A DNA stretch of 64,000 nucleotides from Squalus acanthias (taxonomy: Eukaryota): contig CM059432.1 of assembly GCA_030390025.1 (NCBI GenBank), positions 58,468,001 through 58,532,000 on the forward strand, written 5' to 3'. Positions 3,054-64,000 of this stretch are shown piece after piece. Position 1 is the stretch's first letter. The number at the start of each line of letters is the position of its first letter. The notes beneath the pieces were generated by a model. It was not told the DNA's origin. It searched no databases and was given only the letters and a program-made list of their open reading frames with translations. Position numbers and translations under genes: made by a program.

Positions 3054-3506
3054 TAAGCCTCTGTCTTTGAGAGCTCTACCACCAGCTGATGGCGGTTCCA
3101 GCGCCGCACGCCATATCCGTCTTGCTGGTAGCGATGCCGCTAAACTTGATCGCCGGGGACATCGCAATCACAGAGATCATGATGTCAGTGTGCAGCACTC
3201 AACTTGATGCCCAATCTCCCAACTTCATTTTGGCCATTGAACTTACCGGCTGGAGAAAGCAACGACAGGTTGAGGTGGCGGCAGCAGCAGGAAGCAGGCT
3301 CCAGCGATGCTAGTTAAAGGGATCCTCACCAACCACTCGCACCTGACAGGGTTTTGCAGTTTGAGTGGCTGTCCGCCACTTCCAGCTACTGGAAGAGTTT
3401 TCTTTAGTTATTTCAAGATTATTTGGTACCAGGGAGTGTTCTGGCAAGTAAAAAAACTCCCTCATTATTTTTGAGATGCTTCAAACTACAACACTTGCTA
3501 ATAATC

Positions 3507-4707
3507 ATGGGGGCTGTACTAGCAGTGGACCTCGCCCTCCAGGATCTACGGCGGAGGGAACAGAGGCAGCGAGAAAGACTGGAACATGTGCACAGAGGGA
3601 GGAGGAGGACCATCAGGGCTCTCAACAGGAGGCCTTACCCTCCGAGGGTCTTCCGACATCACTTCTCCTATCTTCAATTAAGCGAGGAGCAGTGTATTAG
3701 GAGGCTTCGCTTCACCAAGGTGGTGGTCACAGAACTCTGCCACCTCCTGCAACCAGACCTCCAGCCTCACACCAGGGCAACACGGCTCTCTCAGTGGCAG
3801 TCAAGGTCACCGTGGCCCTCAATTTCATCACCAGCGGATCCTACCAGTCTGCAACAGGAGACGTAGCTAACATCTCCCAGTTCACCATCCATCGCTGCAT
3901 CCAAGAGGTCACAGAGGCTCTCTACAGTAGGAGAAGGGACTACATTGGCTTCCCGATCATCAGAGAGAAGCAGGACGAGCGTGCATGTGACTTTGCCAGG
4001 ATAGCGGGCTTCCCCGTGGTGCAGGGTGCCATCGACTGCACCCATGTGGCTTTGCGGGCACCGCATAACAATCCTGAGATCTTCTGTAACCGCAAAGGCT
4101 ACCATTCACTTAATGTGCAGTTGGTATGTGACCACACACAGCGAATCCTCAATGTCAATGCCCGCTATCCTGGCAGCAGCCATGATGTCTTCATCCTGTG
4201 CCAGACCGGTGTGCTACCACTCTTCCAGTCACCGCGTCAAGCTCGAGGGTGGCTGCTTGGAGACAAGGGTTATCCGCTCTCCGCCTGGCTCGTGACTCCC
4301 CTACGCAACCCCAACACTCATATAAAGAGAGCCATGATGCCACCAGGAAAATCATCGAGCAGACCATTGGCCTACTGAAGCAACAGTTCCGCTGCCTTAA
4401 TCACTCAGGAGGAGCCCTCCAGTACTCGGCTGAGCATGTGTCCCATTTTGTGGTGGTCTGTTGCATGCTCCACAACTTGGCCATCAAGAGGGTGCAACCC
4501 TTGCCACTAGGGATTGCAGGACAACCTCAGGAGGAGGACGAGGGAGAGGAGGATGAGGAGGAGGAGTACAAGGAGGAAGAGGAGGAGGAGGAAGAGGACG
4601 AGGAACAGGAGGGAGGAGGCAGCCAGACAATTGGCCTTCCAGACGGGCTGTTCGTGACCGGCTCATCAGATTCCGATTCGCATGAATTAAACCCCAGATT
4701 CCCGTAG
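3507..4707 (+). pseudogene. Harbinger (HARBI1-like DDE) transposase, frameshifted
   Basis: Split over ORFs 3423-3866, 3794-4378 and 4198-4707; [40 protein letters not shown] motifs; acidic tail. Confidence 0.92.
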
Positions 4708-4712
4708 CTCAC

Positions 4713-5531
4713 CACAGCCCCATCATACCATCCCTGTCTCACACCATATCACAGCCCCATCATACCATCCCTGTCTTACACCGTATCACAGTCCCATCAT
4801 ACCATCCCTGTCTCACACTGTATCACAGCCCCATCATACCATTCCTGTCTCACACTGTATCACAGCCCCATCATACCATCCCTGTCTCACACCGTATCAC
4901 AGCCCCATCATACCATCCCTGTCTTACACCGTATCACAGTCCCATCATACCATCCCTGTCTTACACCGTATCACAGTCCCATCATACCATCCCTGTCTCA
5001 CACCGTATCACAGCCCCATCATACCATCCCTGTCTCACACCGTATCACAGCCCCAGCATACCATCCCTGTCTCACACCGTATCACAGCCCCATCATACCA
5101 TCCCTGTCTCACACCGTATCACAGCCCCATCATACCATCCCTGTCTCACACCGTATCACAGCCCTATCATACCATCCCTGTCTCACACTGTATCACAGCC
5201 CCATCATACCATCCCTGTCTCACACCGTATCACAGCCCCATCATACCATCCCTGTCTCACACCGTATCACAGCCCCATCATACCATCCCTGTCTCACACC
5301 ATATCACAGCCCCATCATACCATCCCTGTCTCACATCATATCACAGCCCCATCATACCATTCCTGTCTCACACCGTATCACAGCCCCATCATACCATCCC
5401 TGTCTCACATCATATCACAGCCCCATCATACCATCCCTGTCTCACACCGTATCACAGCCCCATCATACCATCTCTCTCTCACTCCGTATCACAGTCCCAT
5501 CATACCATCCCTGTCTCACACCGTATCACAG
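4713..5531 (+). repeat. 37-bp minisatellite, 22 units (CACAGCCCCATCATACCATCCCTGTCTCACACCGTAT)
   Basis: Direct tandem units with period 37 from 4713 to 5527; no spacers. Confidence 0.97.
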
Positions 5532-5638
5532 CGTCCTCCTGGGCGCAAAGCTGAAATGAGAGAGACCACAAAATATTCCAAACATAATTAATAAATTTAT
5601 CTATGAACATATCACACATATTACATGAATACTATTAA

Positions 5639-7481
5639 CTAATCACCCTTGTGCAATCCCTTAGTGGCTGTTGTTTGTGTGCCTTTTCCTACTCTCGTGC
5701 TCCTGTGAAGTGTGCCCCCAGTGGCTGCAGCATGGCTGGTGGAAGGCTGCTGAGTTTCCATGGGGGAGACTTCAGATGGCCCTGCAGGACAACCTCGACT
5801 AGTTCTGGACCTAGAAGGCCCAGCTGTAGACTGCACCAACTCGGCATGTGCGGCAGCAGTCTGGGCTGGCTGGCTGACTGGCAGCTGCAAGGGCAATGGA
5901 AGAGTGGCAGTGGTGGGAGCAGGAATGCTGTCATCCAGAGAGAGGACAGCAGGTTCTTGCTCCACTGACCCACTGCCACTCCCCCGGGGCGGCTTCTCAG
6001 CATCCCTAGCAATTTGTTGGAGCACAGATTGCTGGCCTGCTGCGACACCGTGAAAGCCCCGGTCGACGGTGGTAGACCCAGCCACGATGACAGCAGTCAG
6101 AACTGGGGTGGCATCAAGCTGAGACTACATGAGAGCAATCTGAGCTTCCGCTACAGCACTAAGAGGTTGGGTGGCTTCCGCCTGTGCTGCAATGGAAGCT
6201 GCTACATCGCTCATCATGCACAACATCACGTCTGGGTCGTCAATGCCTCTCTGGGAGTGCACCGTCATTTCCAGACTGGAGATCTTGGGCTCCATGCTCT
6301 GCGCAGAGCCCCGTGCAATGGTGGAGGCGGACTTCTCCACACTCCTTGCCATTGCCAAGAGGCTCTCTGGCAGGCATGCCATTGCACCTATTATTTCCGT
6401 GTGCATGCCCATCACCCTTCTTCTGAAGGCCTCCCCATCGAGGTCTTCATCTAAGTCCTGTGCAGCAGAACTCGCATCCAAACTCACCCTCCGGGGAGCT
6501 GGCCCCCAAGCTACCCTTTCCCCCTGGCCTTGCTGCAGCCCACTTGTGCCCAGTGCCTCACTCTGTACAGATCCCGCTCCTACACTAGCCTCGAAAGAAC
6601 GAGTGACAGATACAGTGACACAGTGTCTTCTTCGTCCTCCTCTTCTCCCCCCTCACATTTGGGGACAGGTTGCTCGGGTGCTTGCTGATTATCTGAAAGC
6701 AGAAAGGCACAAGACTCTGGTTATGGTGAGGGGAGGGGGGCAGGAAGGCAGGAATGCATGCATACAGCATGATTAGCTGGAAAGTGAGAAAAGATTGTCG
6801 GCTGAGGGGGAAGTGGGATGTGAGAATAAGGATTAGGAATGAACATACCGTTGTTGTCCACAAGGGGGTCAACGTTGCCGGTGGCCACGGTGCTGACGAC
6901 CTGGCGCCCAATGATCTCCAGCAGTCTTGTCTTCAGCTGGCTCAGCTCTTCAATGTGGGCTTGGCCCCCACCTGTCCGCTCCTGCTCACGCTGGTTGTGA
7001 GCTATCTTGGCCTGCAAGAGAAAGGAAAGTGTGTGAGTGAGTGTGGTTCAATGTGTTTGGGTGATATACCTGCCATAGTTTAATAGCTGTCATTGTATGC
7101 AAGGTATGAGATGCGGGTGTGAGTGTTGACAGGTAGAGATTGTTGGTGGCTGAGTGCTGGGGGTGTGGTGCATTGAGCAGTGTGTGAAGCTTGTGGTACA
7201 GATGGTGGTATGTAGCATTTGTTGACGCCTTCACTCACTCTGACCACCTGTGTGAGGTTGTTAAACTTCTTCCTGCACTGGGTGTGGGACCTGAGGACCA
7301 CAGTGCTGCCCGTGACGTGGTGTGCCACCTCCCTCCACATTGTGCAGCAGACTTGTAGCAAGGGCCTCCTGTCAGTTGACAGGTACAGGACCGCCCACCT
7401 TCTCTCCACCACAAAAACCAATGCCTTCAGAGCTTCATCCGAGAATCTCCGAGCTCTCTCCCTGGGGCAACAATCTGCCAT
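5639..7481 (-). pseudogene. Harbinger Myb/SANT-like DNA-binding gene, 3 exons (7481-7239, 7011-6849, 6692-5639); exon 3 disrupted
   Basis: RARRFSDEAL...WREVA...QCRKKFNNL Myb/SANT motif; GTGAGT and GTATG donors, CAG acceptors; intron phases 0 and 1. Confidence 0.85.
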
Positions 7482-9730
7482 CAGGATTTGTTAACAACTC
7501 TTCCTTCTCCTTGTCCTTTTTCTTATGGTTGTTGGGGCAGCTGCACTAGCAAGAATGCTGAGAATGAAGTGCTGCAGCATCAATGAACCTCCCCTTTAAG
7601 TAGTGAAAAAAGCCTGTGGCAATCATTACTTGCAATTGGACTGTCCCCGATATTGGTCCAGCTTTTCAGTGTAATGCCGATGAGCTTTAGGTTTTAGACT
7701 AGAATTATAACTGCAATCATTTTAATGAGGAGTGAGGACGAATTTTGCATACATCCTAGATGATTTTCAGGTGGCGCAGCTGAACCTTTTCTAATCTAAA
7801 CATTGCCCATTTCTTAGCTATAACGAATTTCTAGCCCTATTTTTTTTTGTTGTGAAATGCTGCTAGCTGGCACATGACTTGAAACCCTGTCAGTTTACAA
7901 GCCTAACAGTTGGCATGTACATGTTCAGCTGCTCAGGTGTAATTATCATGTCTAAGCAGTGATTATTTTCATTTGTCACTGGCAGTTGCTGCTTATTAGA
8001 AAAAGCCACACTGCTGCATGAACAATAATTAAATGCATTTGATAACAAATAATGTATAAAGGGCTTAAATTTCGGTCATGTAGAAAGTCATCCCCTGAAA
8101 ACTTTCTCAAACTCTGAGAATTCTCTTTAATAAAACTGACACATGTATTGTCAGTTCACTTTGTCCACAATTTCCCAGTGAAATGTTACTCCGAATTTTT
8201 TAGAATTCTGTTTTTCTCCATGTTTCCATTTTCAGTGATTGTAGAATCTCAGGAGCCTGATTAAGATACATATCTTCCTGTTGCAGCAGATAATGCACAG
8301 CTCAGTCAGTGGATTTGAAAGTTATTCATTCTATGTGAAAAACTTTGAGACATTTCTGTGAAACATGGTGATAAGGTGCTATATCAATGGAAGTATTTCT
8401 TTTACAAGTTTATGCATGAAGGGGCTGTGCTGAGCGTCATGTTTCAAAAATATTATAAGTAAGATGCAAAAGATTTTCTCTGTAATCGATAGGAACAGTA
8501 TCTAAGTCCCAGTGTTGACATAATTCCTTTCATTAAACAACACATTATCTATATTCATTTAATTACTAGAAATATTCATTAACTGTTTCTATGGTCAGCA
8601 CATGCTATGATCAGTCATCCAGGCCTCCTTTGGTTGACATGATATTTTATTCCTGGTGAATAATGTAACTTAATGGCAAACTTGACCATTTTTCCCTCCG
8701 CCACCAGGGCAATACTTTTATTAGTTAAATGAGCTTCCGGGGGTTGGAGGGGCGTGTGGGGGGAAGGGGGCTCTGGGCTTTACACAGGACTATAATTCGA
8801 CACTGATATAATTTATCCATAATTTAAGAAAAAAAATATCATGGCAACTCATGCAAACTAAATTAGATAGTACCTCTGACCGAGGAGAAGTAAATGAGAA
8901 AAGATCACAATACTGTGTAGTCAGGAATGAGTAATATAATATCAGTAATGATATTACCCAGGTTTAGTTCTTTTTTAATTAGCTGTGATATATATATATA
9001 TATTTTATGGCTTGATTCCCATTCTCTAGTCCAGCTAATTTTGTTTCTGTACATTCGGTGAGGTAGGAATAGGCTGTAATCAGGCAACTGCAGTGAGGAC
9101 AAACATCTCATGAATTTGAGCATGGTTATTGCTAATATACTGTTCCAAAAAAATGAAACTTTTTAATTGATTACAATTGGGTTTTTTTATTTATATTTCT
9201 CAACAAGGACTCAGGTTTGTAATTGAACTGAGGCAGTCTGATAATTGCTTTTCCTGAATCTATCAGATTCCATCTCTAAATGACAAAATATGGAGCATCG
9301 AATAAAAACAAATTAACAGTTAAAGTGAAAATGGCCTCAAGAGCTGAGCTTCATGGGTGAATAGTCAAGGCTCCATGTCAGACCTATATGGAGTTAGTTG
9401 ATCTGGAGTGCTTATGCTGTTTTATATTTACACAAATGTGGAGTGTTTGAGAGGCATGTCTTCCAATAAAAGAATGAAAACTGACAATCAATGTCATATG
9501 AACATGTTCTTTTGGAAAAAAGTAATTGAAAATAATCTGGATAAATGTAACTTTCAAATGTCTGAAGAGAGGAGGGAGAGTGCAGCAGCCTGTCATGTAG
9601 TGTTATGTGGAGTCCCACTGTAGTCAACCAGTCACGTAATGTTCTGCTCACATTGTTATCTATAGATGCGCTAGAAATTTGAATTTCTAGTGCATCCTCT
9701 AGCAAGGTTCAGAAAGAAGAAGAGTGAGAA

Positions 9731-12009
9731 ATGGCTCAACAGGCCATAAAAATTACTCCAAGGTTCTCAGACGCAGCACAAGAGGCCTTAGTGCAGGGGA
9801 TGGAAAGGTGGAGACATGTACTCCATCTGAAGGGGGCCAGGAGGCCCTCCAGACACACACTGCAAAGGCTATGGCAGCAGGTAGCCGACGAGGTCAATGC
9901 CAGCAGTCTTGCCCCAAGGACATGGATGCAGTGCCAAAAGGAGTTCAGTAACCTCACACAAGTGGTCAAAGTCAGTGAATGCATCATCAAATGCCATATC
10001 CCACCAACTGCACCACTAACCTCACACACTGCTCAATGCACCACACCCCCAGCAGTCACCTACCAACAATATCTACCAATCACCACTCAGACCTCACATT
10101 CCTAGCTTCACCTCACCCTCACACACTTACCACTGCTGCAAGTCTCACACCCACATCTCACACCTTGCACACACTGCTAGCTATTCAACCATGACAGGCA
10201 CATCACCCAATCACATTGCACCAAACTCGCTGACACACATCACCCAATCACATTGCACCACACTCACTCACACACACATCACCCAATCACATTGCACCAC
10301 ACTCACTGACCCACATCACTCAATCACATTGCACCACACTCACTCACACACACATCACCCAATCACATTGCACCACACTCACTGACACACATCACCCAAT
10401 CACATTGCACCACATTCACTCACACACACATCACCCAATCACATTGCACCACACTCACTCACACACACATCACCCAATCACATTGCACCACACTCACGCA
10501 CACACACATCACCCAATCACATTGCACCACACTCACTGACACACATCACCCAATCATATTGCACCACACTCACTCACACACACATCACCCAATCACATTG
10601 CACCACACTCACTCACACACTTCCCTCTCTCGCAGTGCAAGGTGGCTCATAACCGCAGGCAGCAGCAGCTAACCGGCAGAGGACGGGCAAGACTGCACAT
10701 CCTGACCCAGCTGGAGGAGACCGTGCTCGACATTATTGGAGGGGCCGACACTGAGGCTGTGGTGATTGGCGAGGCTGAAACCATTGAAGATGACTGTATG
10801 CTTCTCCTTCTCGCATCCCACTTCCGCCTCATCCCACAATCTCTTCTCACTTACAAGCTGCTGACGGTGTAAGCATGCACATCTTGCTTCCCCTCCCCCC
10901 ACCCCCCACCTCCCCTCACCACAACCCTACCCTTGTGCCTTTCTCCTTTCAGATACCCAAGAGCTCCAACCTGGCCAGCCAGTGCAGGAAGAGCAAGAGG
11001 AGAGTGACGGAGAAGAAGAGACACCGTCAGTCGATCTCACACTCGCAGGCTCCAGCTCAGATAATGGCACTGCATGCACTTTAGAGGGTTGTATACAGGT
11101 GGGATCTGCACGTGGTGAGTCACCGGGGTCGAGTGGCCTGTAGCCAGGGCAGGGGGAAAGGGTTGCGCAGGTGCCAGCTCCCACGAGGGTGAGGTCACAC
11201 ATGAGATCTGTTGCAGAGGACTCAGATGAGGACTTCGATGGGGCGGCCTACAGAAGAAGGCTGATGGGCATGCATAGAGACATGCTTGATGCATTGGCAG
11301 GCCTGCGTGTTGTCACTGTCAAAGAGCATGGAGGAGTCCGGCACCAACCTTGCACAGGGCTTTGCACAGAACTTGGAGCTCATGATTTCCAGGATGAAAG
11401 TGATGGGCAACTCCATTATCGCACTTGTGGACCCAACCATGATGCAAGGTCTGATGGGCAATGTCTCAGCTTCCATTGCAGCACAAGCGGAAGCGACCCA
11501 ACATCTGAGTGCTGCAGTGGAAGCTCAGACTTCTGCCACACAATCTCAGACTGCTGCCATCGTGGCTGCATTTACCAGTGTTGAAAGGGGCTTTCAGGGT
11601 GTCATAGAAGTCCAGCAATCTGTCCTCCAGCCAATTAACTAGGATTGCTGAGGCGCCGTCCCAGGGGAGTGGCAGTAGCTCCATGGAATAAGAAGCTGCT
11701 GTCCTCTCTCAGGATGACAGCATTTATCCTCCCACCCCTGCCACTCCACTAGTGCCCTTGCTGTTGCCTGTTAGCCAGCCAGCCCAGACTGCTGTCGCCC
11801 ATGCCGAGATGGTACAGTCCTCTGATGGGCCTTCTAGGCCCAGAGCTGCTCGAGGTCATCCTGCAAGGCCATCTGCAATCTCCCCCACTGAAAGTCAGCA
11901 GCCTTCCACCAGCCATGATGCAGCCACTGGGGTAGCACTTTGTACGAGCACTAGGACAGGCAAATGCACACTGAAGACAGGCACTAAGGGAATGAACAAA
12001 GATGATTAG
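9731..12009 (+). pseudogene. Harbinger Myb/SANT-like gene, 3 exons (9731-9970, 10636-10795, 10953-12009); exon 3 disrupted
   Basis: PRFSDAAQEAL...WQQVA...WMQCQKEFSNL; 160-nt exon 2; homologous to the element A gene. Confidence 0.85.
10199..10620 (+). repeat. 37/39-bp minisatellite, 11 units (core CATCACCCAATCACATTGCACCACACTCAC), in Myb intron 1
   Basis: Core at 10201, 10238, 10277, 10314, 10353, 10390, 10429, 10468, 10507, 10544, 10583. Confidence 0.95.
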
Positions 12010-12178
12010 TTGAATTTGTTATGTAATATTGGACTGATTGATTTATAGATTTGGTTTGGAATATTTGTTTTGTGGTTGCTTTCATTTCAGTATTGTGGCC
12101 ACGAGGACACTGTGATGTTCCATGAGAGAGGGATGGTAAGGTGGGGAAGTGTTGAGCAACAGGGATCTTGTATTTCAT

Positions 12179-13307
12179 TCAGGGGGACCGGAGTCTGATG
12201 ATGCGCTCACAGACAGCCTGTCTGGAACGTGGATGTGCAGGCTGCCTCCTCCCTTTCTCTTCCTCCTCCTCCTCCTGCTCCTCCTGAATTGATCGCGTAA
12301 CTCGTGGTGGCAAGGGCTGCGCCCTCATGATAGCCAAGTTGTGGAGGATGCAGCAGACCACCATGAATTGGGACACCCGCTCCGGCAAGTACTGGAGGGC
12401 TCCTCCCAAGCGGTCAAGGCAGCAGAACCATTGCTTTAGCACCCCAATGGTCTGCACAATGACGTTCCTCGGGGCAGCATGGTTCTCATTATATGAGTGC
12501 TGCCCATGAGTAGTGGGGTTGCAGAGGGGAGTCATCGGCCAGGTGAAGAACGATAGCCCTGGTCACTGAGCAGCCACCTTCTGGTTCGACGTGGTGGCTG
12601 GAAGATTGATGGCACTGCGGACTGGCACAGGATAAATACATCATGACTGCTGCCAGGATAGCAGTCATTCACCATCCTGATGTACTGGGCATCGTCGAAC
12701 ACCAGCTGCACATTAAGTGAGTGGAAGCCTTTGTGGTTACAGTACATCTCACCATTGAGATGCGGTGCCCGCAAAACCATGAGTGTGCATTCGATGGCAC
12801 CCTGCACCATGGGGAAGTCCAATATCTTGGCAAATGTGCGTGCTCCTCCTGCTTCCCTCTGTTTAGAGAGAAGACAATGAAGTCCCCTCTCCTAGAGTAC
12901 AGAGCCTCTGAGATCTCCCGGTTGCAGCGATGGATTGGGAACGGCGAGATGTTTGCTACGTCACTTGTTCCAGTCTGGAAAGATCCGCTGCCGAAAAAAC
13001 TCAGGGCCACGGTCACATTGAGGGCCACTGGCAGTGCTATCGTTGCCCTGCTCTGAAGCTGTAGGTCTGGTTCCAAGAGGTGACAAAGTTCTGTGACCAC
13101 CTCCTTGGTAAAGTGGAGCCGCCGAACACAGTGCTCCTGGCTTAAGTGCAGGTAGGAGAAGTGCTCCCTGAAGACCCTAGGTGGGTAAGGCCTCCTGCTG
13201 ACAACCCTCCTCCTCCTCCATCTGTGAGCAACTTGTCTTCTTTGCTGCCTCTGCTCCGTCTCCCTGTCATGCTGCAGTGTAAGTGTGACTGCAAGTAGAG
13301 CCCCCAT
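12179..13307 (-). pseudogene. Harbinger transposase, frameshifted
   Basis: ORFs 12669-13319, 12532-12822, 12179-12535; [33 protein letters not shown], poly-E tail. Confidence 0.92.
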
Positions 13308-14032
13308 GATGGGGAGCAAGTGGTGTACTCAGAGGCCTTCCAGTAGCAGCCAACACCTTCCCAACTTCCAGCAGCACTCCCTGCACACCTTACGAACTTT
13401 TCAAATCTCATCCAGCAACCCAGTACTCCTACAAACTCTGCAAGAGCCAGAACATAGCAATAAGCACCTAAACTGCAAGTTGGATCAATCGCTTTAAGCA
13501 GTGCTGGTGAGGGGTGTCCCTCGTGCAGCACAACACATGTTCAGCTGCGTGTGTTTAGAGAGGGTGTTGAATGGAGCGACAAGGTTGAAAATGGCAGGAT
13601 GTGCATCAAATCAGTGTCATACGCTGACTGACGTCACGATCTGCCTACACTGCATACTGCCAGCGCATGCATGTACCACCTGCGTTATCGCCCTCACCAG
13701 GAAGGCGTTCAGCGCAGGCCGTGCCACAAGTGAGGCAGGCGCCATTTTACATTCAAAACCAGCCAAAACTACCGGCGCTACGGAGCCAAATTTCACGGCC
13801 AGCATGTCTATACTTGATTTGAGTGGCTTGGCTCCTCCCACAAGCAAACTGCCCAACTAATTGTGCAACATTGCATCGAGTTAAGCTAACACATGATTTC
13901 TGTGAACAAAACTGATTTTAACCCCATAAAAACTGACATAATTAAAGAAGCCACACACCTCTCCCCAACAAAATGCCATATCTTCAAATGTGTATACAGC
14001 ACTCTGATATAACAACTACACAAAGAGACAAT

Positions 14033-14877: not shown

Positions 14878-16783
14878 AATATCCTTTACAATGCATCCTC
14901 TGAAAGCAAGTCAGTTTAACGTCGGTGATGGGGAAACTTTTAGAAACAATAAGCCGGGAGAAAATTAACAGCCACTTGGACAAGCATGGACTAATAAAGG
15001 AGAGCCAGCATGGATTTGTTAAGGACAAATCGTGTTTGACTAACTTGAATGAGTTTTTGATGAGGTAACAGAGAGGGTGGGTGAGGGCAGTGCGGTTGAT
15101 GTTGTGTATATGGACTTTCAAAAGGCATTTGATAAAGTACCACAGACTAGGCTTGTTAGCAAAATTGAAGCCCATGGGATAAAAGGGGCAGTAGCAGCAT
15201 GGATACAACATTGGCTAAGGGATAGAAAACAGTGAGCTGTGGTGAATGGCTGTTTTTTGAACTGGAGGGAGGTGTGGCATTCCCCAACATTCAGTACTAG
15301 GACTACTGCTGTACATTAATGACTTGGACTTGGGGGTACAGGGCACAGTTTTGAAGTTTGCAGATGACACAAAACTTGAAAGTGTAGTAAACAGTGAGGA
15401 AGATAGTAATAGACTTCAAGAAGGCATAGACAGGCTGGTGGCATGGGCAGACACATGGCAGATGAAAATCAATGCAGAGAAGTGTGAGTTGATACATTTT
15501 AGTAGGAAAAATTAGGAGAGACCATATACAATGGTACAATTTTAAAGGGGGTGCAAGAACAGAGAGACCTGGGGATGTTTGTGCACAAATCTTTGAAGGT
15601 GACAGGACAGGTTAACAAAGCGGTTAAAAAAGCATATGGGATCCTGGGCTTTATGAATAGAGGCATAGAATACAAAAGCCAGGAATTTATGCTAAACCTT
15701 TATAAAACACTAGTTCGGCCCTAGTTGGAGTACTGAGTCCAATTCTTGGCACCACACTTTCAAAAGGGCGTGAAGGCTTTGGAGAGGGTACAGAAGAGAT
15801 TTACTAGAATGGTTCCAGAGTTGAAGGATTACAGTTACGTGGATAGACTGGAGAAGCTGGGGTTGTTGTCCTTGGAGCAGAGAAGGCTAAGAGGAGATTT
15901 GATAGAGGTGTTTAAAGTCATGAAGGGTTTAGATAGAGTAAATAGAGAGAAACTCTTTCCATGGCTGAAGGGTTGATAACCAGAGGACACAGAGTTAAGG
16001 TAATTGGCAAAAGAACCAGTGGCGACATGAGGTAAAACTTTTTACGCAGTGAGTGGTTGGGATTTGGAATGCACTGCCACAAACGGTGGTGGATACAGAT
16101 TCAATAGTGGTCTTCAAAAGGGAATTGGATAAATACTTGAAGGAGAAAAAATTGCAGCGATATGGGAAACGAGCAGGGGAGTGGGACTAACTGGATTGCT
16201 TTTTGAAAGAGCCGCGCAGACTCAAAGGGCCAAATGGTCTCCTTCTGTGCTGTACTATCCTATGATTCTATGAAGTCAGTAATCAAGGGAATGCAGTTCT
16301 TTGGTTGAATTACACAGCTGCAGGCAACCTTGTTGCTCTTCTGTTTCAGCTACTGAGTTGAAAGTCATTAACACAGGATCAAAGAACTGCAAGTCTGTAA
16401 GTAGGACAAGAAAATTGATACATTGTTAAGGGATTTATATCTATCACATTAATGAAGACATTTCTATGTTAACCTTTTTTTAAGTTAATGACCAGTCTTT
16501 TCCTCTGCCTTTAAATGATTGGCAATCCCTTACCATCATGACACGGCTGGTTTAAAGCATGACCTCCATTTTAAATTGTCGACAGCAGCTGAGGCCTCGA
16601 GAGTAACCTCAATCAGGGCAGACAGACAACATATTGTCAAATACCAAGGAAGTGTAACCTGAATTTTGAGTGAAGTAGATTATTGAGTCACAGTGATCTG
16701 TATAGCTGCAGATTATGCTTTCTCTTTTGACTGTCTGCAGAAGTTTGGAGAATCAAGTCACCTTTCCTAAGGCCCCACAACAC
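14878..16783 (+). repeat. Duplicated segment, copy 1, left part (interrupted by CR1 14916-16272); paralog of ~34422-35050
   Basis: 16350-16710 nearly identical to 34601-34965; flanks of the CR1 are contiguous in the paralog. Confidence 0.9.
14916..16272 (+). mobile_element. 5'-truncated, decayed CR1 LINE
   Basis: RT fragments (KFADDTKL, RRLRGDLIEVFK); CTATGATT tail; 8-bp TSD AAGTCAGT (14908-14915/16273-16280); empty site at ~34450. Confidence 0.93.
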
Positions 16784-17314
16784 TTAGGGGGCGGTTTTCC
16801 CAGCCCTGAGGAGGCGGGTTTGGAGTCGGGACAGTTCGTAAAATAGCAAAATGTGAGTGCGGGTTCGGAACCCGCCTCCAACCCTCCTCCGCGCAACGTT
16901 GCCGGAGGCAGGCTTCAGGAGTGCGATTCGGTCCCGCCTCCAAGAGGCGGGATAGGCAGTTAAGATCCTTAACAAGCCCCTAAGGGCCTCTGTAATCCTA
17001 TTTTGCCAGGCCTTTGTTATTTTTGCCACATTTTCAGCGTGTTGCACGCCGCTCCTAAATCACGCCAGCTAATCCTGGCGGGTTGACAAGTGGTTGGCCT
17101 CCTCACAGCTGCAGCTCGACCATAAAAACGAAGCTTTCAACAGGGATCAGTTGGAGGTGGCAGAACTTTTTCCCCACAGATCTTTGAGCACTTTTTCCAG
17201 GCCTACTGAAGTCGGAGGTGGTGCAGCTGAGATATATATACTTTGGGACCTCCTGGGAGAACCCTCTCCCTACTTAGACTGAGCGCTTCCCCAACGGAGG
17301 TATCTGCCAGCAGC

Positions 17315-18541
17315 ATGGGAAACATTTATTTCCTTTCATCATGGACCTCCGATTCGGACGAGGAGCAGCCACGGCAGCAGCAGAACCAGGCAGAACAGCA
17401 GCAACAGCAGCAGGAGCGCCAACCTGCTGCTCACCCACCTGATGCTGCACAGGGCAGAAGGCACCAGTGCATGGCAGCACGTCGCCGCAGGAGATACCCT
17501 CCTCTCAGGGTTTACAGACAGAGGATGGGCTTCCTCAACATGAGTGAGCAGCAGTGCCAAAGGAGGCTGAGACTTTCGCGAGAGGTTGTCGGAGACATCT
17601 GCGCAATGCTGCACCAAAACCTGGAGCTCAGAGGATCCGGTGGACACCCCTTACCAGTGGCTGTCAAAGTCACCACCGCAGTCAACTTTTTTGCTTCAGG
17701 CTCCTTCCAGGGATCATCAGCAGACATCAGCGGCATCTCCCAGTCGGCCGCCCACAGTTGCATCACGCAGTTTACCGATGCCCTCTTCAGAAAGGCGCAC
17801 AATTACATCAACTTTTCAACTGATGAAGCAAGTATAACCGTGCGTGCGGTTGGATTTGCAAATATGGCAGGCTTGCCAATGGTGCAGGGCGTCGTAGACT
17901 GCACACATGTGGCCCTTAGGGCACCTCATCACAACCCAGCTATTTTTGTCAACCGCAAGGGCTTCCACTCCCTCAATGTACAGCTGGTGTGTAACCACAA
18001 GAAGGAGATTTCGCATGTTTGCGCCAAGTACTGTGGCAGTTGCCATGACTCGTTCATCCTGCGGCAGTCTAGTGTGCCTCCGCTCTTCAATCCGCCAAAC
18101 CAACTAAACGGATGGCTCCTTGGAGACAAGGGCTACCCACTGAAGAAGTGGCTAATGACGCCGATAAGGAGGCCATCGAACGAAGCTGAGGAGCGCTACA
18201 ATGCCAGCCACATTTTGACCAGGTCCATCATCGAACAAACCATCGGCTTGCTGAAGATGCGATTCAGATGCCTTGACGGATCAGGTGGAGCCCTGCAGTA
18301 CTCAACAGCCAGGGTCTCCAGAATGGTCGTGGTCTGCTGTGCGCTGCACAACATCGCACAGCATCGTGGCTTGCAGCTTCCTGAGGAGCAAGTGGCTCAG
18401 TACATAGCCTCCTCAGATGAAGAGGAGGAGGAGGAGAATGATGACCGAGCGGAGGCGCATCAACTAGCAGCAGCAGCAGCACGCGAGCACATTGCTGGCC
18501 GGAATGCAAGGGATGCACTCATCTTGGCCAGATTTGCTTAG
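17315..18541 (+). CDS. Intact Harbinger (HARBI1-like) DDE transposase, 408 aa from the first ATG
   Basis: Single open frame with [56 protein letters not shown]-terminal poly-Q/Arg stretch and C-terminal acidic tract. Confidence 0.93.
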
Positions 18542-18796
18542 GCTGTCCATTCTAGCACATGTGCTTGGCTCCTTCTTAGCACAAGATAGACAGTGGACAT
18601 GACTCTCTGGCTTCCTCTCACTCTGACCACCAACCTGACCAAGCCAGTCTCGCTGAGGCCGCAATGTGGAGCTTCCAAAATCGAAATCACAGAGGCCATA
18701 ACGTCAACAGTTTGCCATCACCAGAGTTTAATACATTCACAAAGGGATGGCATTTAATCATTAAACACAAAAAAACCCAAGTGACTGCCCGTGTGA

Positions 18797-20727: not shown

Positions 20728-21012
20728 CTCTTCTCAACGCAAAAGTTTCCAAGTTGTGCAGCATCCACAAAACAGCAGTGAAATGATCCAAGGCAGCAAG
20801 CAGCCCTTAAATGAAGCTGCATAAGTGATGTCAGCAGAGGCGCGTTTCAGTCCAAAAAGAGTCATTGGCCCAGGGGAACCCACATGCCCGGAGTTAATCG
20901 GGCAATTAGGGGAAAATCCCAACTTTTTCCCACCTGACAGTGAGAGGCAGGTTCGGCACCCGCCCACCCCCAAACCCGCTCCCAACCCGCCTCCAATGGG
21001 AAAATCATCCCC

Positions 21013-23520: not shown

Positions 23521-23808
23521 GTGGAGCAGGACTTCCACCAAACTCCAGGTCACGTCGTTGATCCAATTGCAAATTGTGGGGTCAGCTAATTTAAATGGTG
23601 TGAGGCATGCAGGCTTTCTAATTACAATCTGTAACACCTCAAACACATGCGGTAGGGAAGGTTGGAAAATAGTCCAGGTAAGGGTTAGGCACTAAATGAG
23701 TTATGGGGGGAGGGGAACGAGGGGGCAGTGCAGTGCAGAGAGGAGTGGGGATGGTAGAGGGAGAGGCAAAGACCTGGTGCAGTAGCAGGATATAAAAGCT
23801 ACCGCTGC

Positions 23809-35050: not shown

Positions 35051-35052
35051 AC

Positions 35053-41086: not shown

Positions 41087-41375
41087 TTACACAAGGGTAT
41101 GCACATGGGTATGTTAGGCAATGTTGTACTGTGAAGGTTATGTTGAAATTTGGAGGAACGTAAAATTATTTCATTGTACCACTTTCCCGTCTTGCTGAAT
41201 TTTGTCTGTTGCCTGGCGCGTGGCCTTGTCACTTGTAATGAATAGTAAGACACGACTTAACTGCGAGCAATGGATGTCTATGAAAGGAATGGTTTGGTCA
41301 TTGTAGGACTGCTTTGTGGTTGGGAGGGGAAAGTGGGTCCAGCATCTGAGTGCCAGATCGGTGCACTGGTGCAAC

Positions 41376-45595: not shown

Positions 45596-46484
45596 GGGGG
45601 AAAAATTCGGTTGCTTTGCGCCTCCCGTTAGCGCCCTAAGAGGGCGCTAATGGGGCGCAAAGCAACTAGCGCCTGTGTACGGCGATGTTTGCGCCACTCG
45701 CAAAATTGACCAGACATTTTGCAGCGGTGCTAAACACTACTGCCACGATCTCCTGCGCCCGCAGATCGTGACGTCAGTCAAGTGTGCAACGCCCCGGTAG
45801 CGCCCCAGACCAGATATTGAGTGGCACCCCCTGCCTTTCCGCCTGCCGCTAGCAATGACAGGTTGAGGGGAACGTTTTGCAGTCGGGAAGGGACTGGGGA
45901 GCGCTATTTAAAGGTGACCGCTTCCTGCCTTTTTTGTTGCCGACATTTTTGCACCACGCATTCTGAGAGAGAGAGAGAGACTGCAGAAGATATTCAACGC
46001 TGTGTGAAGGAGTTTTGGGTACTGAGCAGCACTTTGCAGGTTCATTTTAATTTGACCTTCCTTGCATCAATTTAGAAGAGACTGTGGGAGCTGCACTCTG
46101 AGCTCTTTCCCTGGGCCTCTTCATTATTCTTTCCAGCAGATTTGATGTACAGGTCTCTCCAGGCCGAGATTCAAGCTGCAATGAGCAGGGTGTGGATGGA
46201 GGGCAAGATCGACCCTTCCCTTTAAGAACTGGCCGGGGCCATTGTGTCTGTGTTCCATTGCTGACTGACATTACATGAGCTTCGCCCGCGCTCTGAGGTA
46301 GTGCCTCGCTCCTCGGCGTTAGCGCCTTAAGAGAGGTGTGTAGCGCCTGATTTAGCGCTCCAATCACCTCCAGGGGCGATAGAAGCCAAGTTTACAGTCG
46401 GAGGAAATAATTAGTGCCAGGCGCTAAACTTTGCGCCCGGCCAATAATTGCGCCCCAAACGGGGCGATACCGAATTTCTCCCCC
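45596..46484 (+). mobile_element. Harbinger-type MITE, GC-rich family
   Basis: TIR GGGGGAAAAATTCGGT/ACCGAATTTCTCCCCC; AGA TSD. Confidence 0.92.
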
Positions 46485-51052: not shown

Positions 51053-51825
51053 GGGGGAAAAATTCAGCTGCTTGCGCCTCCCGTTAGCGCCTTAAATGGG
51101 CGCTAATGGGGCGTAAAGCAGCTAACGCCCGGGCGCAGCGCCGCCCACGCCTCCCGAAAAATTTAGTGGGAGGTTAGCGGCGGCGGCAGCCGGTAGCGCC
51201 CTGTGGCGCTGCGCCGCCGGCGATGACGTCATCGCCGTGCGCAGCGCCCCGCTCGCGCCCCGGCCGTGATCTTCAGTCGCGCCCCCTGATTTACCGCCAG
51301 ACGCTATGTCCGACGGGTTCAGGGGGGCGTACGTGCGGCCGGGGCGGCGATATTTAAAGGGGAGGTGGCAGGCGGCCATTTTTGTTGCTGGCCGCCTGCC
51401 AGCACCTGCCCCCGTTGCTGTCCCCGGCCCCCGTGAAGCCCCCCCACCGTGAAGTGCCGGCTGCGCTCCAAGAGCCCGGCACTTCTCTTGAGTGCCGGGC
51501 TCTTTTGCCGGCACTCCCGATCCCTGGGAGCCCAGCTGGGCCCCGGTTCGCGCTGCGCAAGGCCCCTCCCCTTTAAGAAGGGGAGGAAGGCCTGCAATAC
51601 CGCGGCGCGACGTGCCGCAGCGCGTGGCGCTGCGGCACGTAGCGCCAGGATATTCACTCGCAGCGCCCCAAGAGGGATGCGGGGTGCTTCCAGTTGCGCC
51701 CCGCTTCCCTCTTGGGGCGCAACCACTGAAGTTCCGGCGCGGGGCCGCTAATTTTTTCGGGGCGCTAAAAGTCGCGCCCCGGCGAGGTTAGCGCCCCAAA
51801 TGGGGCGCGACTCAATTTTTACCCC
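51053..51825 (+). mobile_element. Harbinger-type MITE, GC-rich family, CpG-rich
   Basis: TIR GGGGGAAAAATT/AATTTTTACCCC; CTT TSD. Confidence 0.9.
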
Positions 51826-52629
51826 CTTTAGTTTTGACATTCCCATACTAACCTAAATTCAGAACTGTATACAAATCCAGAATTAATCCCCAATCATCTT
51901 TATACTTTATATATTTTTTATTTTCAAAAAAGCTATGTAACCTTGAGCACAAGACCAAATGTGTATGCCCCATGTTTCCTTATCACAAATTAGAGAGTTA
52001 TTTTTCATCCTGTCATATTGACCTATAAGTAAATAAAAATAGCAATGAATAAAAACCTTACTTAACCTTAAGACATCTAAAATATGCCAAACTTCAGCAG
52101 TTTGTCCTCTAAAAATTAACACAGCAGGAATAAGATCATTTTGTAAGTATTATTGCCAAGGGTGCTTTCATTTCTTGAAAACATAGTGACAGCAACATAA
52201 GATAATACATACTGTGCATAACATTTCCTTATAATGAACAGTATGTTCTTTTTCTGTAAACTCGCAAGAACGACATGAAAGTGCCCCACTTTGAGTGTCC
52301 TGCTGCACTGATCTTATTTGTCAGATTAGCAGAAAAACCCACAAGGGACGAGAAAAGTGATACCTCAAAACTATAACTTGACAAAAAAAATTACAATGTC
52401 AAATTTTAAAGACGCTCTTGAGGGGACAAGAGCCACAAGAACTTCCTATACACAGCAACTGGCAGCTTCAGAAATACAACTTATTAATGGCATAGAACTT
52501 TGTCCTTGAATGAGAAGTCTACATAAGAACAAAGTTTCTAAAATGTATTCTTTAAGATTAAAAGGAGTTGAAACCTAAAATTGAATCTCAGAATTTTTAA
52601 TATTACCTAACCATCTCCTCGCAACTAGA

Positions 52630-60954: not shown

Positions 60955-62790
60955 TACAATCATGATAGAATTCTTCATTAAGATGGAAAGTGAAGAAGTC
61001 CAATCCGAAATTAGGGTCCTAAATCTAAACAAAGGAAACTATGAAGGTATGAGGAGTGAGTTGGCTATGATAGATTGGGGAGCTTCATTAAAAAGCATGA
61101 CTGTGGATACCTGGGATGGCAGGAATGACGTATGAGGAGAGATTGGGTCAATTGGGCTTATACTCGCTGGAGTTTAGAAGAATGAGAGGGGATCTCATTG
61201 AAACTTATAAAATTCTGAAAGGACTGGACAGACTAGATGCAGGAAGGATGTTCCCGATGGTCGGGGAGTCCAGAACCAGGGGTCACAGTCTAAGGATAAG
61301 GGGTAAGCCATTTAGGACAGAAATGAGGAGGAATTTCTTCACCCAGAGAGTGGTGAACCTGTGGAATTCTCTGCCACAGAAGGCAGTAGAGGCCAATTCA
61401 TTAAATATATTCAAGAAGGAGTTGGATATATTTCTTAAGGCTAAAGGGATCAAGGAATATGGGAGAAAGCAGGGACAGGGTTCTGAATTTGGATGATCAG
61501 CCATGATCGCATTGAATGGCAGAGCAGGCTAGAGGGGCCGAATGGCCTACTCCTGCTCCTATCTTCTATGTTTCTAGGCAATGGCTAACATTTAAGGAAC
61601 GAATGCATGAATTGCAACAGTTATACATTCCTTTCTGGTGCAAAAACACAAAAGGAAAAGCGGCCCAACCATGGCGAACAAAAGAAATTAAGGATAGTAT
61701 TAGATCCAAAGAGGAGTCATATAAAGTTGCCAGAAAAAGTAGCAAGCCTGAGGATTGGGAGCAGTTTAGAGTTCAGCAAAAAAGGACCAATAGATTGATT
61801 AAGAGGGGAAAAATAGAGTATGAGGGTAAACTTGCAAGGAATATAAAAGCGGATTGTAAAAGCTTCTACAAGTATGTAAAAAGAAAAAGATTAGTGAAGA
61901 CAAATGTAGGTCCCTTACAGTCAGAAACGGGAGAATTTATAATGGGGAACAAGGAAATGGCAGGGCAATTAAACAAATACTTTGGTTCTGTCTTCACGGA
62001 AAAACAGAAAGGCAGAGTATTATTTAAATGGTGATATATTGGGAAATGTTGATGTACAGAGGGACCTGGGTGTCCTTGTACACCAGTCAATGAAAGCAAA
62101 CATGCAGGTGCAGCAAGCAGTTAGGAAGGCAAATGGTATGTTGGCCTTCATTGCAAGAGGATTTGAGTACAGGAGCAAGGATGTCTTACTACAGTTATAC
62201 AGGGCCTTGATGAGACCACACCTGGAGTACTGTGTGCAGTTTTGGTCTCCTTACCTAAGAAAGGATATACTTGCCAAAGAGGGAGTGCAGCAAAGGTTCA
62301 CCAGACTAATTCCTGGGATGGCAGGACTGTCGTATGAGGAGAGATTGGGTCGACTAGGCCTGTATTCACTAGAGTTTAGAAGAATGAGAGGGGATCTCAT
62401 TGAAACGTATAAAATTCTGACAGGGCTAGACAGACTGGATGCAGGGAGGATGTTTCCCCTGGCTGGGGGGTCTAGAACGAGGGGTCACAGTCTCAGGATA
62501 CGGGGTAGAACATTTAGGACTGAGATGAGGAGAAATTTCTTCACTCAGAGGGTGGTGAACCTGTGGAGTTCTCTACCACAAAAGGCTGTGGAGGCCAAAT
62601 CACTGAATATATTTAAGAAGGAGATAGATAGATTTCTAGACACAAAAGGCATCAAGGGGTATGGGGAGAGAGCGGGAATATGGTATTGAGATAGAGGATC
62701 AGCCATGATCATATTGAATGGCGGAGCAGGCTTGAAGGGCCGAATGGCCTACTCCTGCTCCTATTTTTCTATGTTTCTATGTTTCTATGT
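60955..62790 (+). mobile_element. CR1 LINE fragment with internal RT deletion (~62000) and a nested CR1 3' fragment
   Basis: FGSVFTE joined directly to KNRKAEYYLNG; intact C-terminus, 3' UTR and (TATGTTTC)n tail. Confidence 0.88.
61110..61576 (+). mobile_element. CR1 3' fragment (family of 1-2066) nested in another CR1
   Basis: Removal restores MTVD-RQWLTFKE; has its own 3' UTR and tail. Confidence 0.88.
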
Positions 62791-62857
62791 AATTAATTGG
62801 AATTATTTATTCCTAGATCCTGCCCGTGGTAATTATTTACTCTTTCTTTACTTATCT

Positions 62858-63360
62858 GCACTGGAGAGGGTGCCGAGAAGATTTACAAGGATGATACCAG
62901 AAATGCGAGGGTATACATATCAGGAAAGGATGAACAGGCTGAGTCTCTTTTCTCTTGAAAAAAGAAGGCTGAGGGGTGACCTAATAGAGGTCTTTAAAAT
63001 TATGAAAAATTTTGATAGAGTGGATACGGAGAGAATGTTTCCACTTGTGGGGAAGATCATAACTAGAGGCCGTCAATATAAGATAGTCACCAAGAAATCC
63101 AATAGGGAATTCAAAAGAAACTTCTTTACGCAAAAGAGTGGTGAGAATGTGGAACTCGCTACCACAGGGAGTGGTTGAAGTGAATAGTATAGATGCATTT
63201 AAGGGGAGGCTAGACAAGCATATGAGGGAAAAGGGAATAGAGGGTTATGCTGATCGAGTTAGATGAGGAAAGATGGGAGGAGGCTCGTGTGGAGCATAAA
63301 CGCCGGCATGGACTGGTTGGGCCGAATGGCCTGTTTCTGTGCCTTTTATCCTATGTAATC
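62858..63360 (+). mobile_element. CR1 3' fragment (family of 21418-23060)
   Basis: ALERVPRRFTRMIPEMRGYTYQERM; shared 3' UTR. Confidence 0.9.
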
Positions 63361-63614
63361 CTTATTGTTACCTGGCCCCATTTGCTGCCCAGGAGAACTT
63401 TCTGCACTTCCTTATCACTAATAGTGGCTCAAAATAAATTGTGTTCAACACCACCAGGACACTGGGTGTGGGGGGGTGGGTGGGCGGTGGAGGGGCGGCG
63501 GCGGGGCGAGGGGGAGATCACTGTAATGCTGCTAATGGGAAAAAGGACCACAATGGTAAGTAGGCAGACTTACCACAAAGACTAACCTGTTACCACCCAC
63601 ATAAAAACTCTTAA

Positions 63615-64000
63615 GGCCTAGAAATTGGATATAGCCATGAAACAGGCAATGTTAATGCCTAATGATGCGCCACCTTAAAATGGTTTAGGTAGCACATGAA
63701 ACTCCTCATTAACATAATTATAGTCATTATTTCAGCGCTAAAACTGCTGTTCATTGGCTTAATGCTCAACAGGTGGGCTAATATCAGGGCCAGTCTAATT
63801 CCCAGTCATGTGTGGCACAGGCTTTTTCCACTACTTAAAGGGGAGGTACATTGATGCTACAGCACTTCATTGTCAAGACAGTTCCAACTGCAGGAAGAAG
63901 AAAGAAGAAGAAGAAGAAGAAAGAAGAAAGAAGAAAGAAGAAAGAAGAAAGAAGAAAAAGCCAAAGCCAAAGCCAAAGCCAAAGCCATGGCAGAGCGTCC
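63615..64000 (+). mobile_element. Start of another Harbinger (Myb end); probable Myb ATG at ~63987; runs out of the window
   Basis: TAA|GGCCTAGAAATT; 63830-63875 is homologous to the reverse complement of 7560-7603. Confidence 0.75.
63893..63986 (+). repeat. Compound (GAA)/(AAAGAAG)/(AAAGCC) microsatellite in the putative Myb 5' UTR
   Basis: Read directly from the sequence. Confidence 0.92.

What the first reader, a model, noticed from the sequence alone, without database searches (positions are those of the whole stretch)
3314..63842. Paired inward-facing TTAAAGGG boxes: candidate shared core promoter kept in gene-less MITEs
Seen: TTAAAGGG lies upstream of Harbinger genes in their sense orientation at 3314(+), 7592(-), 23809(+), 31279(-), 43649(+), 45259(-) and 63835(+), with variants near 13492 and 20804. 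All four GC-rich MITEs keep a convergent pair: 24366/24465, 35950/36163, 45908 (TTAAAGGT)/46218, 51354/51569. Inference: a TATA-like box driving the two convergent genes. In MITEs it could give overlapping sense/antisense RNA (dsRNA or small-RNA self-regulation) or act as a portable promoter. It could instead be a Myb-protein binding site.
Basis: partly seen in the sequence, partly recalled or inferred. Interest (0 to 1): 0.72.

Follow-up and report, generated by a model that had tools for sequence, protein, structure and literature searches.

The report
Promoter box in Harbinger transposon ends
A short AT-rich word sits once inside each end of many jumping genes in this stretch of fish-like DNA and most likely marks where their two genes start to be read; the small gene-less copies probably keep it simply because they are made of the two ends.

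Summary
The word is real: 15 TTAAAGGG against 2.86 expected; 14 lie in Harbinger-type ends, all facing inward. The best reading is a TATA-like core-promoter word. A TATA-like word lies 179-197 nt before the transposase start in 5 of 5 leaders. A CCAAT box lies 57-58 nt before it in 4 of 7 Myb ends whose upstream DNA is otherwise unalignable (1 of 20,000 rotations). A CRE-like 8-mer lies 124-160 nt before it in 6 of 7 transposase-type ends of one clade. It is not one shared promoter: the two ends have different upstream elements, and 3 of 5 transposase ends use another word. The four MITEs are internal deletions keeping both ends; 6 other MITE-like elements lack the pair. No start site, small RNA or binding was shown; only contigs were available. 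The dsRNA and Myb-site ideas are unsupported. A Kolobok-end reading was tested and rejected. Still open: all 8 MITE halves keep the box at 59-71% mutual identity, while none of the 4 Myb-side halves keeps the CCAAT intact.

The parts
3054..7837 (.). H1: decayed two-gene Harbinger-type element (transposase +, start 3507; Myb-like -, start 7481); left TIR not found, M1 abuts it
   Evidence: DDE_Tnp_4 1e-19; Myb_DNA-bind_5 1e-4
3314..3321 (+). TTAAAGGG box, 193 nt before H1 transposase start; CRE-like 8-mer at 3180
7592..7599 (-). TTAAAGGG box, 118 nt before H1 Myb start; CCAAT 57 and 40 nt upstream
7652..7656 (-). CCAAT box, 57 nt before the H1 Myb-side box
9666..13800 (.). H2: decayed two-gene element (Myb + at 9731, upstream end deleted; transposase - at 13307); left limit approximate
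13490..13497 (-). variant box TTAAAGCG, 190 nt before H2 transposase start; CRE 139 nt upstream (13629)
16787..21012 (.). H3: two-gene element with open transposase frame (17315-18541, 408 aa) and Myb-like gene (-, start 20727); TIRs and TTA/TTT flanks
   Evidence: DDE_Tnp_4 2e-36
17121..17128 (+). CATAAAAA, 194 nt before H3 transposase start (one mismatch to TATAWAWR), in place of TTAAAGGG
20803..20810 (-). variant box (TTAAGGG), 83 nt before H3 Myb start; CCAAT 58 nt upstream (20864-20868)
23791..23816 (+). H0 Myb-like gene remnant (start 23870): perfect TATAAAAG at 23791 and TTAAAGGG at 23809
   Evidence: Myb_DNA-bind_5 E 0.056, below cut-off
24034..24721 (.). M3: family-A MITE inserted in the H0 Myb exon; TAA/TAG flanks; CRE at 24206; boxes 24366-24373 (+) and 24465-24472 (-)
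28957..31486 (.). H4: decayed, probably composite element with MITE M8 (30226-30967) inside; AGTAAAAG at 29307, 197 nt before the mutated transposase start; TTAAAGGG 31279-31286 (-) with CCAAT 58 nt upstream
35050..36468 (.). M4: family-A MITE in reverse orientation, left TIR damaged, LINE piece at 35228-35890; boxes 35950-35957 (+, Myb side) and 36163-36170 (-, transposase side); CRE at 36287
39127..43095 (.). H5: decayed two-gene element (Myb +, transposase - at 42561); TATTTAAAG at 39316 with CCAAT 58 nt before its TTAAAG; GATAAGTA at 42733-42740 (-), 179 nt before the transposase start
43355..45462 (.). H6: deleted, probably composite element; boxes 43649-43656 (+, followed by a consensus splice-donor word 25 nt on) and 45259-45266 (-, 191 nt before the Myb start at 45075)
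45596..46484 (.). M5: family-A MITE, AGA/AGA flanks; CRE at 45769; boxes 45908-45915 (+, TTAAAGGT) and 46218-46225 (-); keeps a Myb start-like stretch at 46124
51053..51826 (.). M7: family-A MITE; CRE at 51224; boxes 51354-51361 (+) and 51569-51576 (-)
63615..64000 (+). H7: Myb end of an H1-like element cut by the window edge; box 63835-63842, Myb start 63987
15542..15549 (+). TTAAAGGG inside a CR1-like LINE fragment; taken as a chance match

Best explanation
The box, extended consensus about TA(C/T)TTAAAGGG(A/G), is the TATA-like core word of the two internal promoters of Harbinger-type transposons whose transposase and Myb-like genes face each other. Shown: its position, direction, conservation and spacing to other motifs. 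Inferred: TBP/TFIID binds it and RNA starts about 27-28 nt past the first T of TTAAAG, helped on the Myb side by NF-Y at a CCAAT box about 85 nt before the start, and on the transposase side of one clade by an ATF/CREB-type site. The promoters are two different ones that share a word. The four family-A MITEs are internal deletions joining a transposase-side end to a Myb-side end, so they inherit one inward box per half; any convergent RNA would be a by-product.
For: 14 of 14 boxes in elements face inward and are sense to the gene. A TATA-like word lies 194, 191, 194, 197 and 179 nt before the transposase start in 5 of 5 leaders, and in H3 it is CATAAAAA; H1 and H2 are close kin, and the H3-H5 words were picked after alignment. 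CCAAT lies 57-58 nt before the box in 4 of 7 gene-bearing Myb ends whose 190 upstream nt are 50-54% alike against 50-55% for shuffles; 1 of 20,000 rotations does as well; window-wide, 4 of 22 CCAAT-to-box distances fall on 57-58. In human cells the TATA element is positioned about +50 from CCAAT and NF-Y peaks at -40 to -100 (PMC3730095, passages). TTAAA is listed as a TATA-like pentamer 20-40 bp before starts in zebrafish (bioRxiv 10.1101/2019.12.27.884890, passages); TATTTAAA is a working core element in yeast (PMC4457894, passages). A CRE-like 8-mer lies 124-160 nt before the box in 6 of 7 clade-I transposase-type ends. H1 and H7 Myb ends match at 55 of 60 positions from -18 to +42 against 139 of 220 further out (Fisher p 7e-6). 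The box is the longest invariant run in both end alignments (p 3.5e-4 and under 5e-5). MITE transposase-side halves match H1's end (z 7.7, 7.1, 4.9 for M4, M5, M7; 1.5 for M3), and M5 keeps a stretch like the H1 Myb start.
Against: No start site was observed. The match to TATAWAWR is loose: 1 mismatch in 3, 2 in 12, 3 in 3 of 18 boxes, and a better word lies elsewhere in 5 of 20 ends, including a perfect one 18 nt before the H0 box. No initiator peak at +26 to +29 (CA in 9 of 18, no more than other windows). Box-to-start distance on the Myb side ranges from 61 to 191 nt. In H6 a consensus donor lies 25 nt past the box, before the predicted start; H1 and H2 lack it. 3 of 7 Myb ends lack an intact CCAAT at -57/-58. 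Contigs of 3 of 3 runs guessed to be RNA bridge the H3 Myb-side box (records 6, 18, 26); these are diverged copies that may be DNA or passive intronic RNA, so this weighs little. Myb-side homology of MITE halves to H1/H7 is weak (z at most 2.2 upstream, 3.2 downstream). All 8 MITE halves keep the box at 59-71% mutual identity while 0 of 4 Myb-side halves keep the CCAAT intact, which plain inheritance does not obviously predict.
Confidence: 0.62

Rival explanations
1. The box is also, or mainly, a cis-element selected in non-autonomous copies for mobilisation: a host factor such as TBP bends or opens DNA 200-330 nt inside each end and aids pairing of the ends.
For: Kept in 8 of 8 family-A halves at 59-71% identity, with unrelated interiors (z at most 2.3). 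Only 13-34% of uniformly placed breakpoints would keep both boxes in each MITE. Myb-side CCAAT intact in 0 of 4.
Against: 4 MITE-like elements have no TTAAAG and 3 more lack the pair. Subterminal repeats run almost up to the box, so needing them would carry the box along. The four MITEs may descend from separate autonomous parents that each kept the box for expression. Single contigs hint at H3-type derivatives keeping only about 40 nt per end (joints 16825-20973 and 16831-20975; short sides, weak).
Confidence: 0.13
2. The box is a CHR-like site for DREAM/MuvB that, with CCAAT boxes, ties expression of the transposon genes to S/G2/M.
For: TTTAAA is a functional CHR and binds DREAM as strongly as the canonical word (PMC4176359, passages). 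CCAAT and TTAAA/TTTAA are enriched in S/G2/M promoters of zebrafish. M1 has TTTGAA about 62 nt after its CCAAT.
Against: Only 4 of 18 boxes contain TTTAAA; CTTAAA does not occur in that paper's main text (supplements not read). CHRs are reversed in about 45% of genes, whereas 14 of 14 boxes face one way. The conserved G-run is not explained.
Confidence: 0.07
3. The box is the binding site of the element's own Myb-like protein.
For: One copy at a similar depth in each end; the zebrafish Harbinger Myb-like protein binds element ends (PMC2836001, passages); a fish Harbinger-derived protein binds its own promoter region (PMC11893794, passages).
Against: Better candidates exist: multi-copy GC-rich words that differ by family (GGCGCTA 3-7 times in family A; CCGCCTC 4-6 times in M1 and H3). 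The box is single and shared by families with different repeats. The primary binding paper (Sinzelle 2008) was not available.
Confidence: 0.06
4. The paired boxes drive convergent RNA in MITEs, and the double-stranded overlap is a selected source of small RNAs that regulate the family.
For: Geometry allows overlaps of 53, 167, 264 and 169 nt between predicted starts. MITEs are CpG-rich (o/e 0.74-1.02 against 0.45 for the window) and hold 4 of the 5 perfect CREs.
Against: No RNA strand, start or small-RNA data. The overlaps are interiors unrelated between MITEs, so they give no common target. The Myb-side halves lack the CCAAT.
Confidence: 0.05
5. The box is a 3' splice site (TTAAAG|G) that traps host transcripts to express the transposon genes.
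For: Pyrimidine-rich upstream flank in some Myb-side boxes (13-17 of 20 in H1, H7, H3, M3, M7).
Against: The two bases before AG are AA in 17 of 18 boxes, where acceptors are free or prefer C/T (consensus recalled); transposase-side boxes mostly have 6-11 pyrimidines of 20; the CCAAT spacing is not explained.
Confidence: 0.04
6. The pairs are the TTAA target duplication plus AGGRR ends of nested Kolobok/T2-MITE elements.
For: T2-MITEs are defined by TTAA and terminal AGGRR (PMC6004289, passages); 13 of 14 boxes fit. Gapped similarity of paired interiors exceeds permuted pairs (p 0.01-0.04).
Against: Ungapped p 0.51-0.74. Past the G-run 0 of 6 pairs beat shuffles (p 0.067-0.71). The pairs enclose Harbinger genes, true TIRs with 3-bp flanks lie 200-330 nt outside, and similarity to H1 runs through the box.
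Confidence: 0.03

Closest known systems
PIF/Harbinger (PHIS) elements of vertebrates, e.g. zebrafish Harbinger3_DR and the Nuwa groups (PMC4482050, PMC9179366, PMC2836001, PMC3016246; passages read)
   Same: Two genes (DDE_Tnp_4 transposase, Myb/SANT-like protein), TIRs starting with GG, 3-bp flanking duplications, about 4 kb, with non-autonomous derivatives.
   Different: The passages read describe no promoter motifs (the word 'promoter' does not occur in PMC9179366). Flanking triplets here vary (TAA, AAT, AGA, GAT, GTA), so no PHIS subgroup is assigned.
Promoters in the ends of other DNA transposons: hobo (TATA plus CAAT box), Hsmar1, Sleeping Beauty (PMC6446368, passages)
   Same: A promoter between the terminal repeat and the gene, with TATA and CAAT motifs in hobo.
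   Different: Those have one gene and measured activity; here there are two inward promoters and no measurement.
CCAAT plus TATA-like vertebrate Pol II promoters (PMC3730095; bioRxiv 10.1101/2019.12.27.884890; passages)
   Same: CCAAT about 50-55 nt before a TATA-like word; TTAAA is among the listed TATA-like pentamers.
   Different: The fixed G-run after the word and its presence on both ends of a transposon; no start site mapped here.
T2-MITE / Kolobok ends (PMC6004289, passages)
   Same: The letters TTAA + AGGRR in inward-facing pairs.
   Different: No terminal inverted repeat beyond the word; Harbinger genes inside and Harbinger ends outside.

Membership tests
PIF/Harbinger (PHIS) transposon | DDE transposase of the DDE_Tnp_4 family | tested here: met
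   H3 2e-36, H5 6e-32, H1 1e-19; the H2 N-terminal piece had no hit (3 of 4 transposase pieces)
PIF/Harbinger (PHIS) transposon | second gene with Myb/SANT-like domain | tested here: met
   H2 1e-10, H1 1e-4; H0 E 0.056 below cut-off and H3 first exon no hit (2 of 4)
PIF/Harbinger (PHIS) transposon | short TIRs starting with GG and 3-bp target duplication | tested here: met
   identical triplets in 5 of 11 elements listed (M1, M2, H5, M5, M6), one mismatch in 5, two in 1
PIF/Harbinger (PHIS) transposon | subgroup-specific target (TWA, CWG, C|TNA|G, ANT) | tested here: inconclusive
   triplets vary; no phylogeny made
Harbinger-type MITE by internal deletion | both ends of an autonomous family, no intact gene | tested here: met
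   M4, M5, M7 match the H1 transposase end (z 4.9-7.7); Myb side weaker; no exact parent in the window, though H4's first 45 nt share the family-A end
TATA-like core promoter element | at most two mismatches to TATAWAWR (PMC4457894) | tested here: met
   15 of 18 boxes; 3 of 18 have three mismatches
TATA-like core promoter element | one orientation, upstream of the gene, fixed spacing to upstream factors | tested here: met
   14 of 14 inward; CCAAT at 57-58 in 4 of 7 Myb ends
TATA-like core promoter element | transcription start 25-30 nt downstream | not testable with these tools
   only contigs could be laid; no initiator peak in sequence
TATA-like core promoter element | TBP binding and loss of activity on mutation | not testable with these tools
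   needs a bench assay
Kolobok / T2-MITE end | TTAA plus terminal AGGRR | tested here: met
   13 of 14
Kolobok / T2-MITE end | terminal inverted repeat continuing past AGGRR | tested here: not met
   0 of 6 pairs beat shuffles past the G-run
CHR element (DREAM/MuvB) | TTTGAA, TTTAAA or another validated hexamer | tested here: inconclusive
   TTTAAA in 4 of 18; the full list of 10 validated words is in a figure not seen
CHR element (DREAM/MuvB) | works in either orientation | tested here: not met
   14 of 14 in one orientation against about 45% reversed in human genes

The most novel reading that the evidence does not exclude
Gene-less Harbinger MITEs are under selection to keep both core-promoter words because host transcription machinery bound there (TBP, or DREAM/MuvB with NF-Y in the parent elements) licenses or times cut-and-paste mobilisation, for instance to S/G2 or the germ line; thousands of CpG-rich copies would then be portable, inward-facing promoter pairs.
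Probability: 0.15. Interest if true: 0.65.

Novelty: new member of a known kind. Interest (0 to 1): 0.33.

Why it matters
A two-gene transposon needs promoters in its ends, and deletion derivatives keep ends, so the basic picture is expected. What is added is a concrete, testable promoter grammar for vertebrate Harbinger elements (CCAAT, about 55 nt, TATA-like word on the Myb side; CRE-like site and TATA-like word on the transposase side), which was not found in the held literature (searches; listings and passages only; most subscription papers and Repbase reports are not held). If MITEs are truly selected to keep the word, it would be a host-factor requirement for Harbinger mobility or a large supply of portable promoters.

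Tried and rejected
No whole genome is held, so family-wide counts were impossible. Sequencing runs for 16300-25600: no RNA holder listed; 9 of 15 runs were only guessed to be RNA, all were contigs. Laying 4 of the 15 on 16600-25300 gave no start, strand or level; no pile-up of ends; only 15 of 603 joints, 24 of 7661 loose ends and 40 of 1061 differences were shown, none informative at the boxes. A family-A end pattern found 0 matches in metagenome contigs. 41 distant transposase relatives from metagenomes (28-56% identity, 132 kb) show no enrichment of TTAAAGGG (8 against 6.1 expected) and no fixed position in the 15 with enough upstream DNA, so the word seems lineage-specific. Viral contigs: 0 of 40 candidates. 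Rfam: 0 matches. Initiator positioning: no peak. Hairpin as a general feature: 2 of 5 box regions fold better than shuffles (M3 and M7 Myb sides, z -3.0 and -2.3). Kolobok ends rejected. Poly(A) words between the convergent genes were found on both strands only in H3 (1 of 5). The primary Harbinger3_DR paper was not held; PMC13566119 was seen only in a search listing. No supplements were read; those of PMC4176359 may list further CHR words. Look-ups in earlier notes by place, sequence and words found none on this box.

Full report
Setting. The window is eukaryotic DNA full of CR1-like LINE pieces (RVT_1 2e-21 for one frame) and Harbinger-type elements; no whole genome is held. That it is cartilaginous fish is my recalled reading of the repeat types and agrees with earlier unchecked notes; it was not tested. 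I mapped 8 gene-bearing elements or remnants (H0-H7) and 11 MITE-like elements from TIRs, flanking triplets and translations. H3 (16787-21012) has an open 408-aa transposase (DDE_Tnp_4, 2e-36); H1 and H2 give Myb_DNA-bind_5 hits. Where both genes remain, they face each other.

Observation. TTAAAGGG occurs 15 times against 2.86 expected. 14 are in element ends and all face inward; 1 is in a LINE. But the four MITEs are one family (A: M3, M4, M5, M7). M1, M6, X and a piece near 28190-28830 have no TTAAAG, and M2, M8, M9 lack the pair. The copies are related, so the count overstates independence.

What the word is. Over 18 boxes picked by TTAA(A/G)G, T stands at -3 in 13, A at -2 in 10, and G at +6 and +7 in 16 and 15. 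Read from -3 this is a TATA-like word with 1-3 mismatches to TATAWAWR (3, 12 and 3 boxes); it is the best or tied-best such word in 15 of 20 ends, and the sole best in 7. On the transposase side a TATA-like word lies 179-197 nt before the start in 5 of 5 leaders. In H1 and H2 it is TTAAAG; in H3, H4 and H5 the aligned place reads CATAAAAA, AGTAAAAG and GATAAGTA. A CRE-like 8-mer precedes the box by 124-160 nt in 6 of 7 clade-I transposase-type ends. On the Myb side CCAAT precedes the box by 57, 58, 58 and 58 nt in H1, H3, H4 and H5, although their upstream 190 nt are no more alike than shuffles; H7 and M4 have a one-letter variant there, H6 and H0 nothing. One of 20,000 rotations matched this. 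This was noticed in the data and then tested, so the figure is post hoc. It fits published spacing: TATA about +50 from CCAAT, NF-Y at -40 to -100 (PMC3730095, passages), and TTAAA as a TATA-like pentamer in zebrafish (bioRxiv 10.1101/2019.12.27.884890, passages). The H1 and H7 Myb ends are 55 of 60 identical from -18 to +42, against 139 of 220 further out. The factor names NF-Y, ATF/CREB and TBP are inferred from motifs.

Against this reading. No initiator peak appears at the predicted start. Myb-side leader lengths vary from 61 to 191 nt. H0 has a perfect TATA 18 nt before its box. H6 has a consensus donor 25 nt past the box and a possible acceptor 95 nt later, which would put the start upstream of the predicted place; H1 and H2 share the acceptor-like word but not the donor. 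Contigs from three runs guessed to be RNA bridge the H3 Myb-side box, but this family is very abundant in a related genome and contigs cannot show starts.

Why MITEs have a pair. Their CRE-bearing halves match H1's transposase end upstream of the box (z 7.7, 7.1, 4.9; M3 1.5, with an insertion); H6's leader matches H2's (69% over 106 nt, 2e-12). Their other halves resemble the H1/H7 Myb end around the box, more weakly, and M5 keeps a stretch like the H1 Myb start. So they are internal deletions. The halves are only 59-71% alike and the interiors unrelated, yet the box is the longest invariant run in both alignments (the second alignment includes a piece cut around the box). This may reflect separate parents that each needed the promoter, or selection in the MITEs themselves; the window cannot tell. 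That 0 of 4 Myb-side halves keep an intact CCAAT while 4 of 4 keep the box is the main loose end.

Rivals. Kolobok/T2 ends have the same letters (PMC6004289, passages; 13 of 14 fit), but no inverted repeat continues past the G-run (0 of 6 pairs), although a gapped test that included the G-run gave p 0.01-0.04. A CHR reading (PMC4176359, passages) fits 4 of 18 boxes and not the strict orientation. A Myb site is less likely than the family-specific multi-copy repeats; the zebrafish binding motif could not be checked because the primary paper is not held. The dsRNA idea is geometrically possible (53-264 nt overlaps) but has no data behind it. Distant relatives show no enrichment (8 against 6.1 in 41 loci).

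Verdict. A real, conserved, directional motif, most likely the TATA-like word of the two promoters of Harbinger-type elements, carried into one MITE family by deletion. Expected in kind; the specific grammar was not found in the held papers. Function is inferred from sequence alone. Interest 0.33.

Noticed in passing
window 16348-16787 and 21013-21100 versus 34599-35050 and 36469-36560: A duplicated host stretch (left flanks 99% alike over 300 nt, right flanks clearly homologous) carries a different Harbinger-type element at nearly the same site in each copy: H3 in one, MITE M4 in the other.
   Followed up: partly
window 23479-25300: H0 is a low-copy Myb-like gene remnant split by MITE M3; a contig of a related organism runs from the flank into M3, so the insertion is shared (record 15).
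   Followed up: partly
   Followed up: no
window 43673-43768: Intron-like 95 nt in the H6 transposase-side leader, starting 25 nt past the box; the acceptor-like word is shared with H1 and H2.
   Followed up: partly
window 24455-24490 and 51560-51590: The Myb-side boxes of M3 and M7 lie in a local 9-10 bp inverted repeat, giving a rough outward-facing copy on the other strand.
   Followed up: partly
window 28957-29005: H4 begins with a family-A end (82-85% over 40-48 nt) but continues as an H3/H5-type transposase leader, suggesting end swapping between families.
   Followed up: no
window 4602-5678, 10144-10715, 46930-47130: Tandem arrays of 37-39 nt units inside H1, inside the H2 Myb intron and inside M6.
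   Followed up: no
window 25661-25822: A 162-nt MITE with GGGGGTAATTTTCAC-type ends and no box.
   Followed up: partly
window 26170-27410: Short frames that by eye recall a hAT-type transposase tail (recalled resemblance); Pfam gave no hit for either piece.
   Followed up: partly
window 47820-49330: A CpG-rich stretch with a 5-nt microsatellite that looks like a solo LTR or another repeat; not analysed.
   Followed up: no
window 9660-9700: A small fold-back of two TIR-like halves directly before the H2 Myb gene, where its upstream end should be.
   Followed up: no
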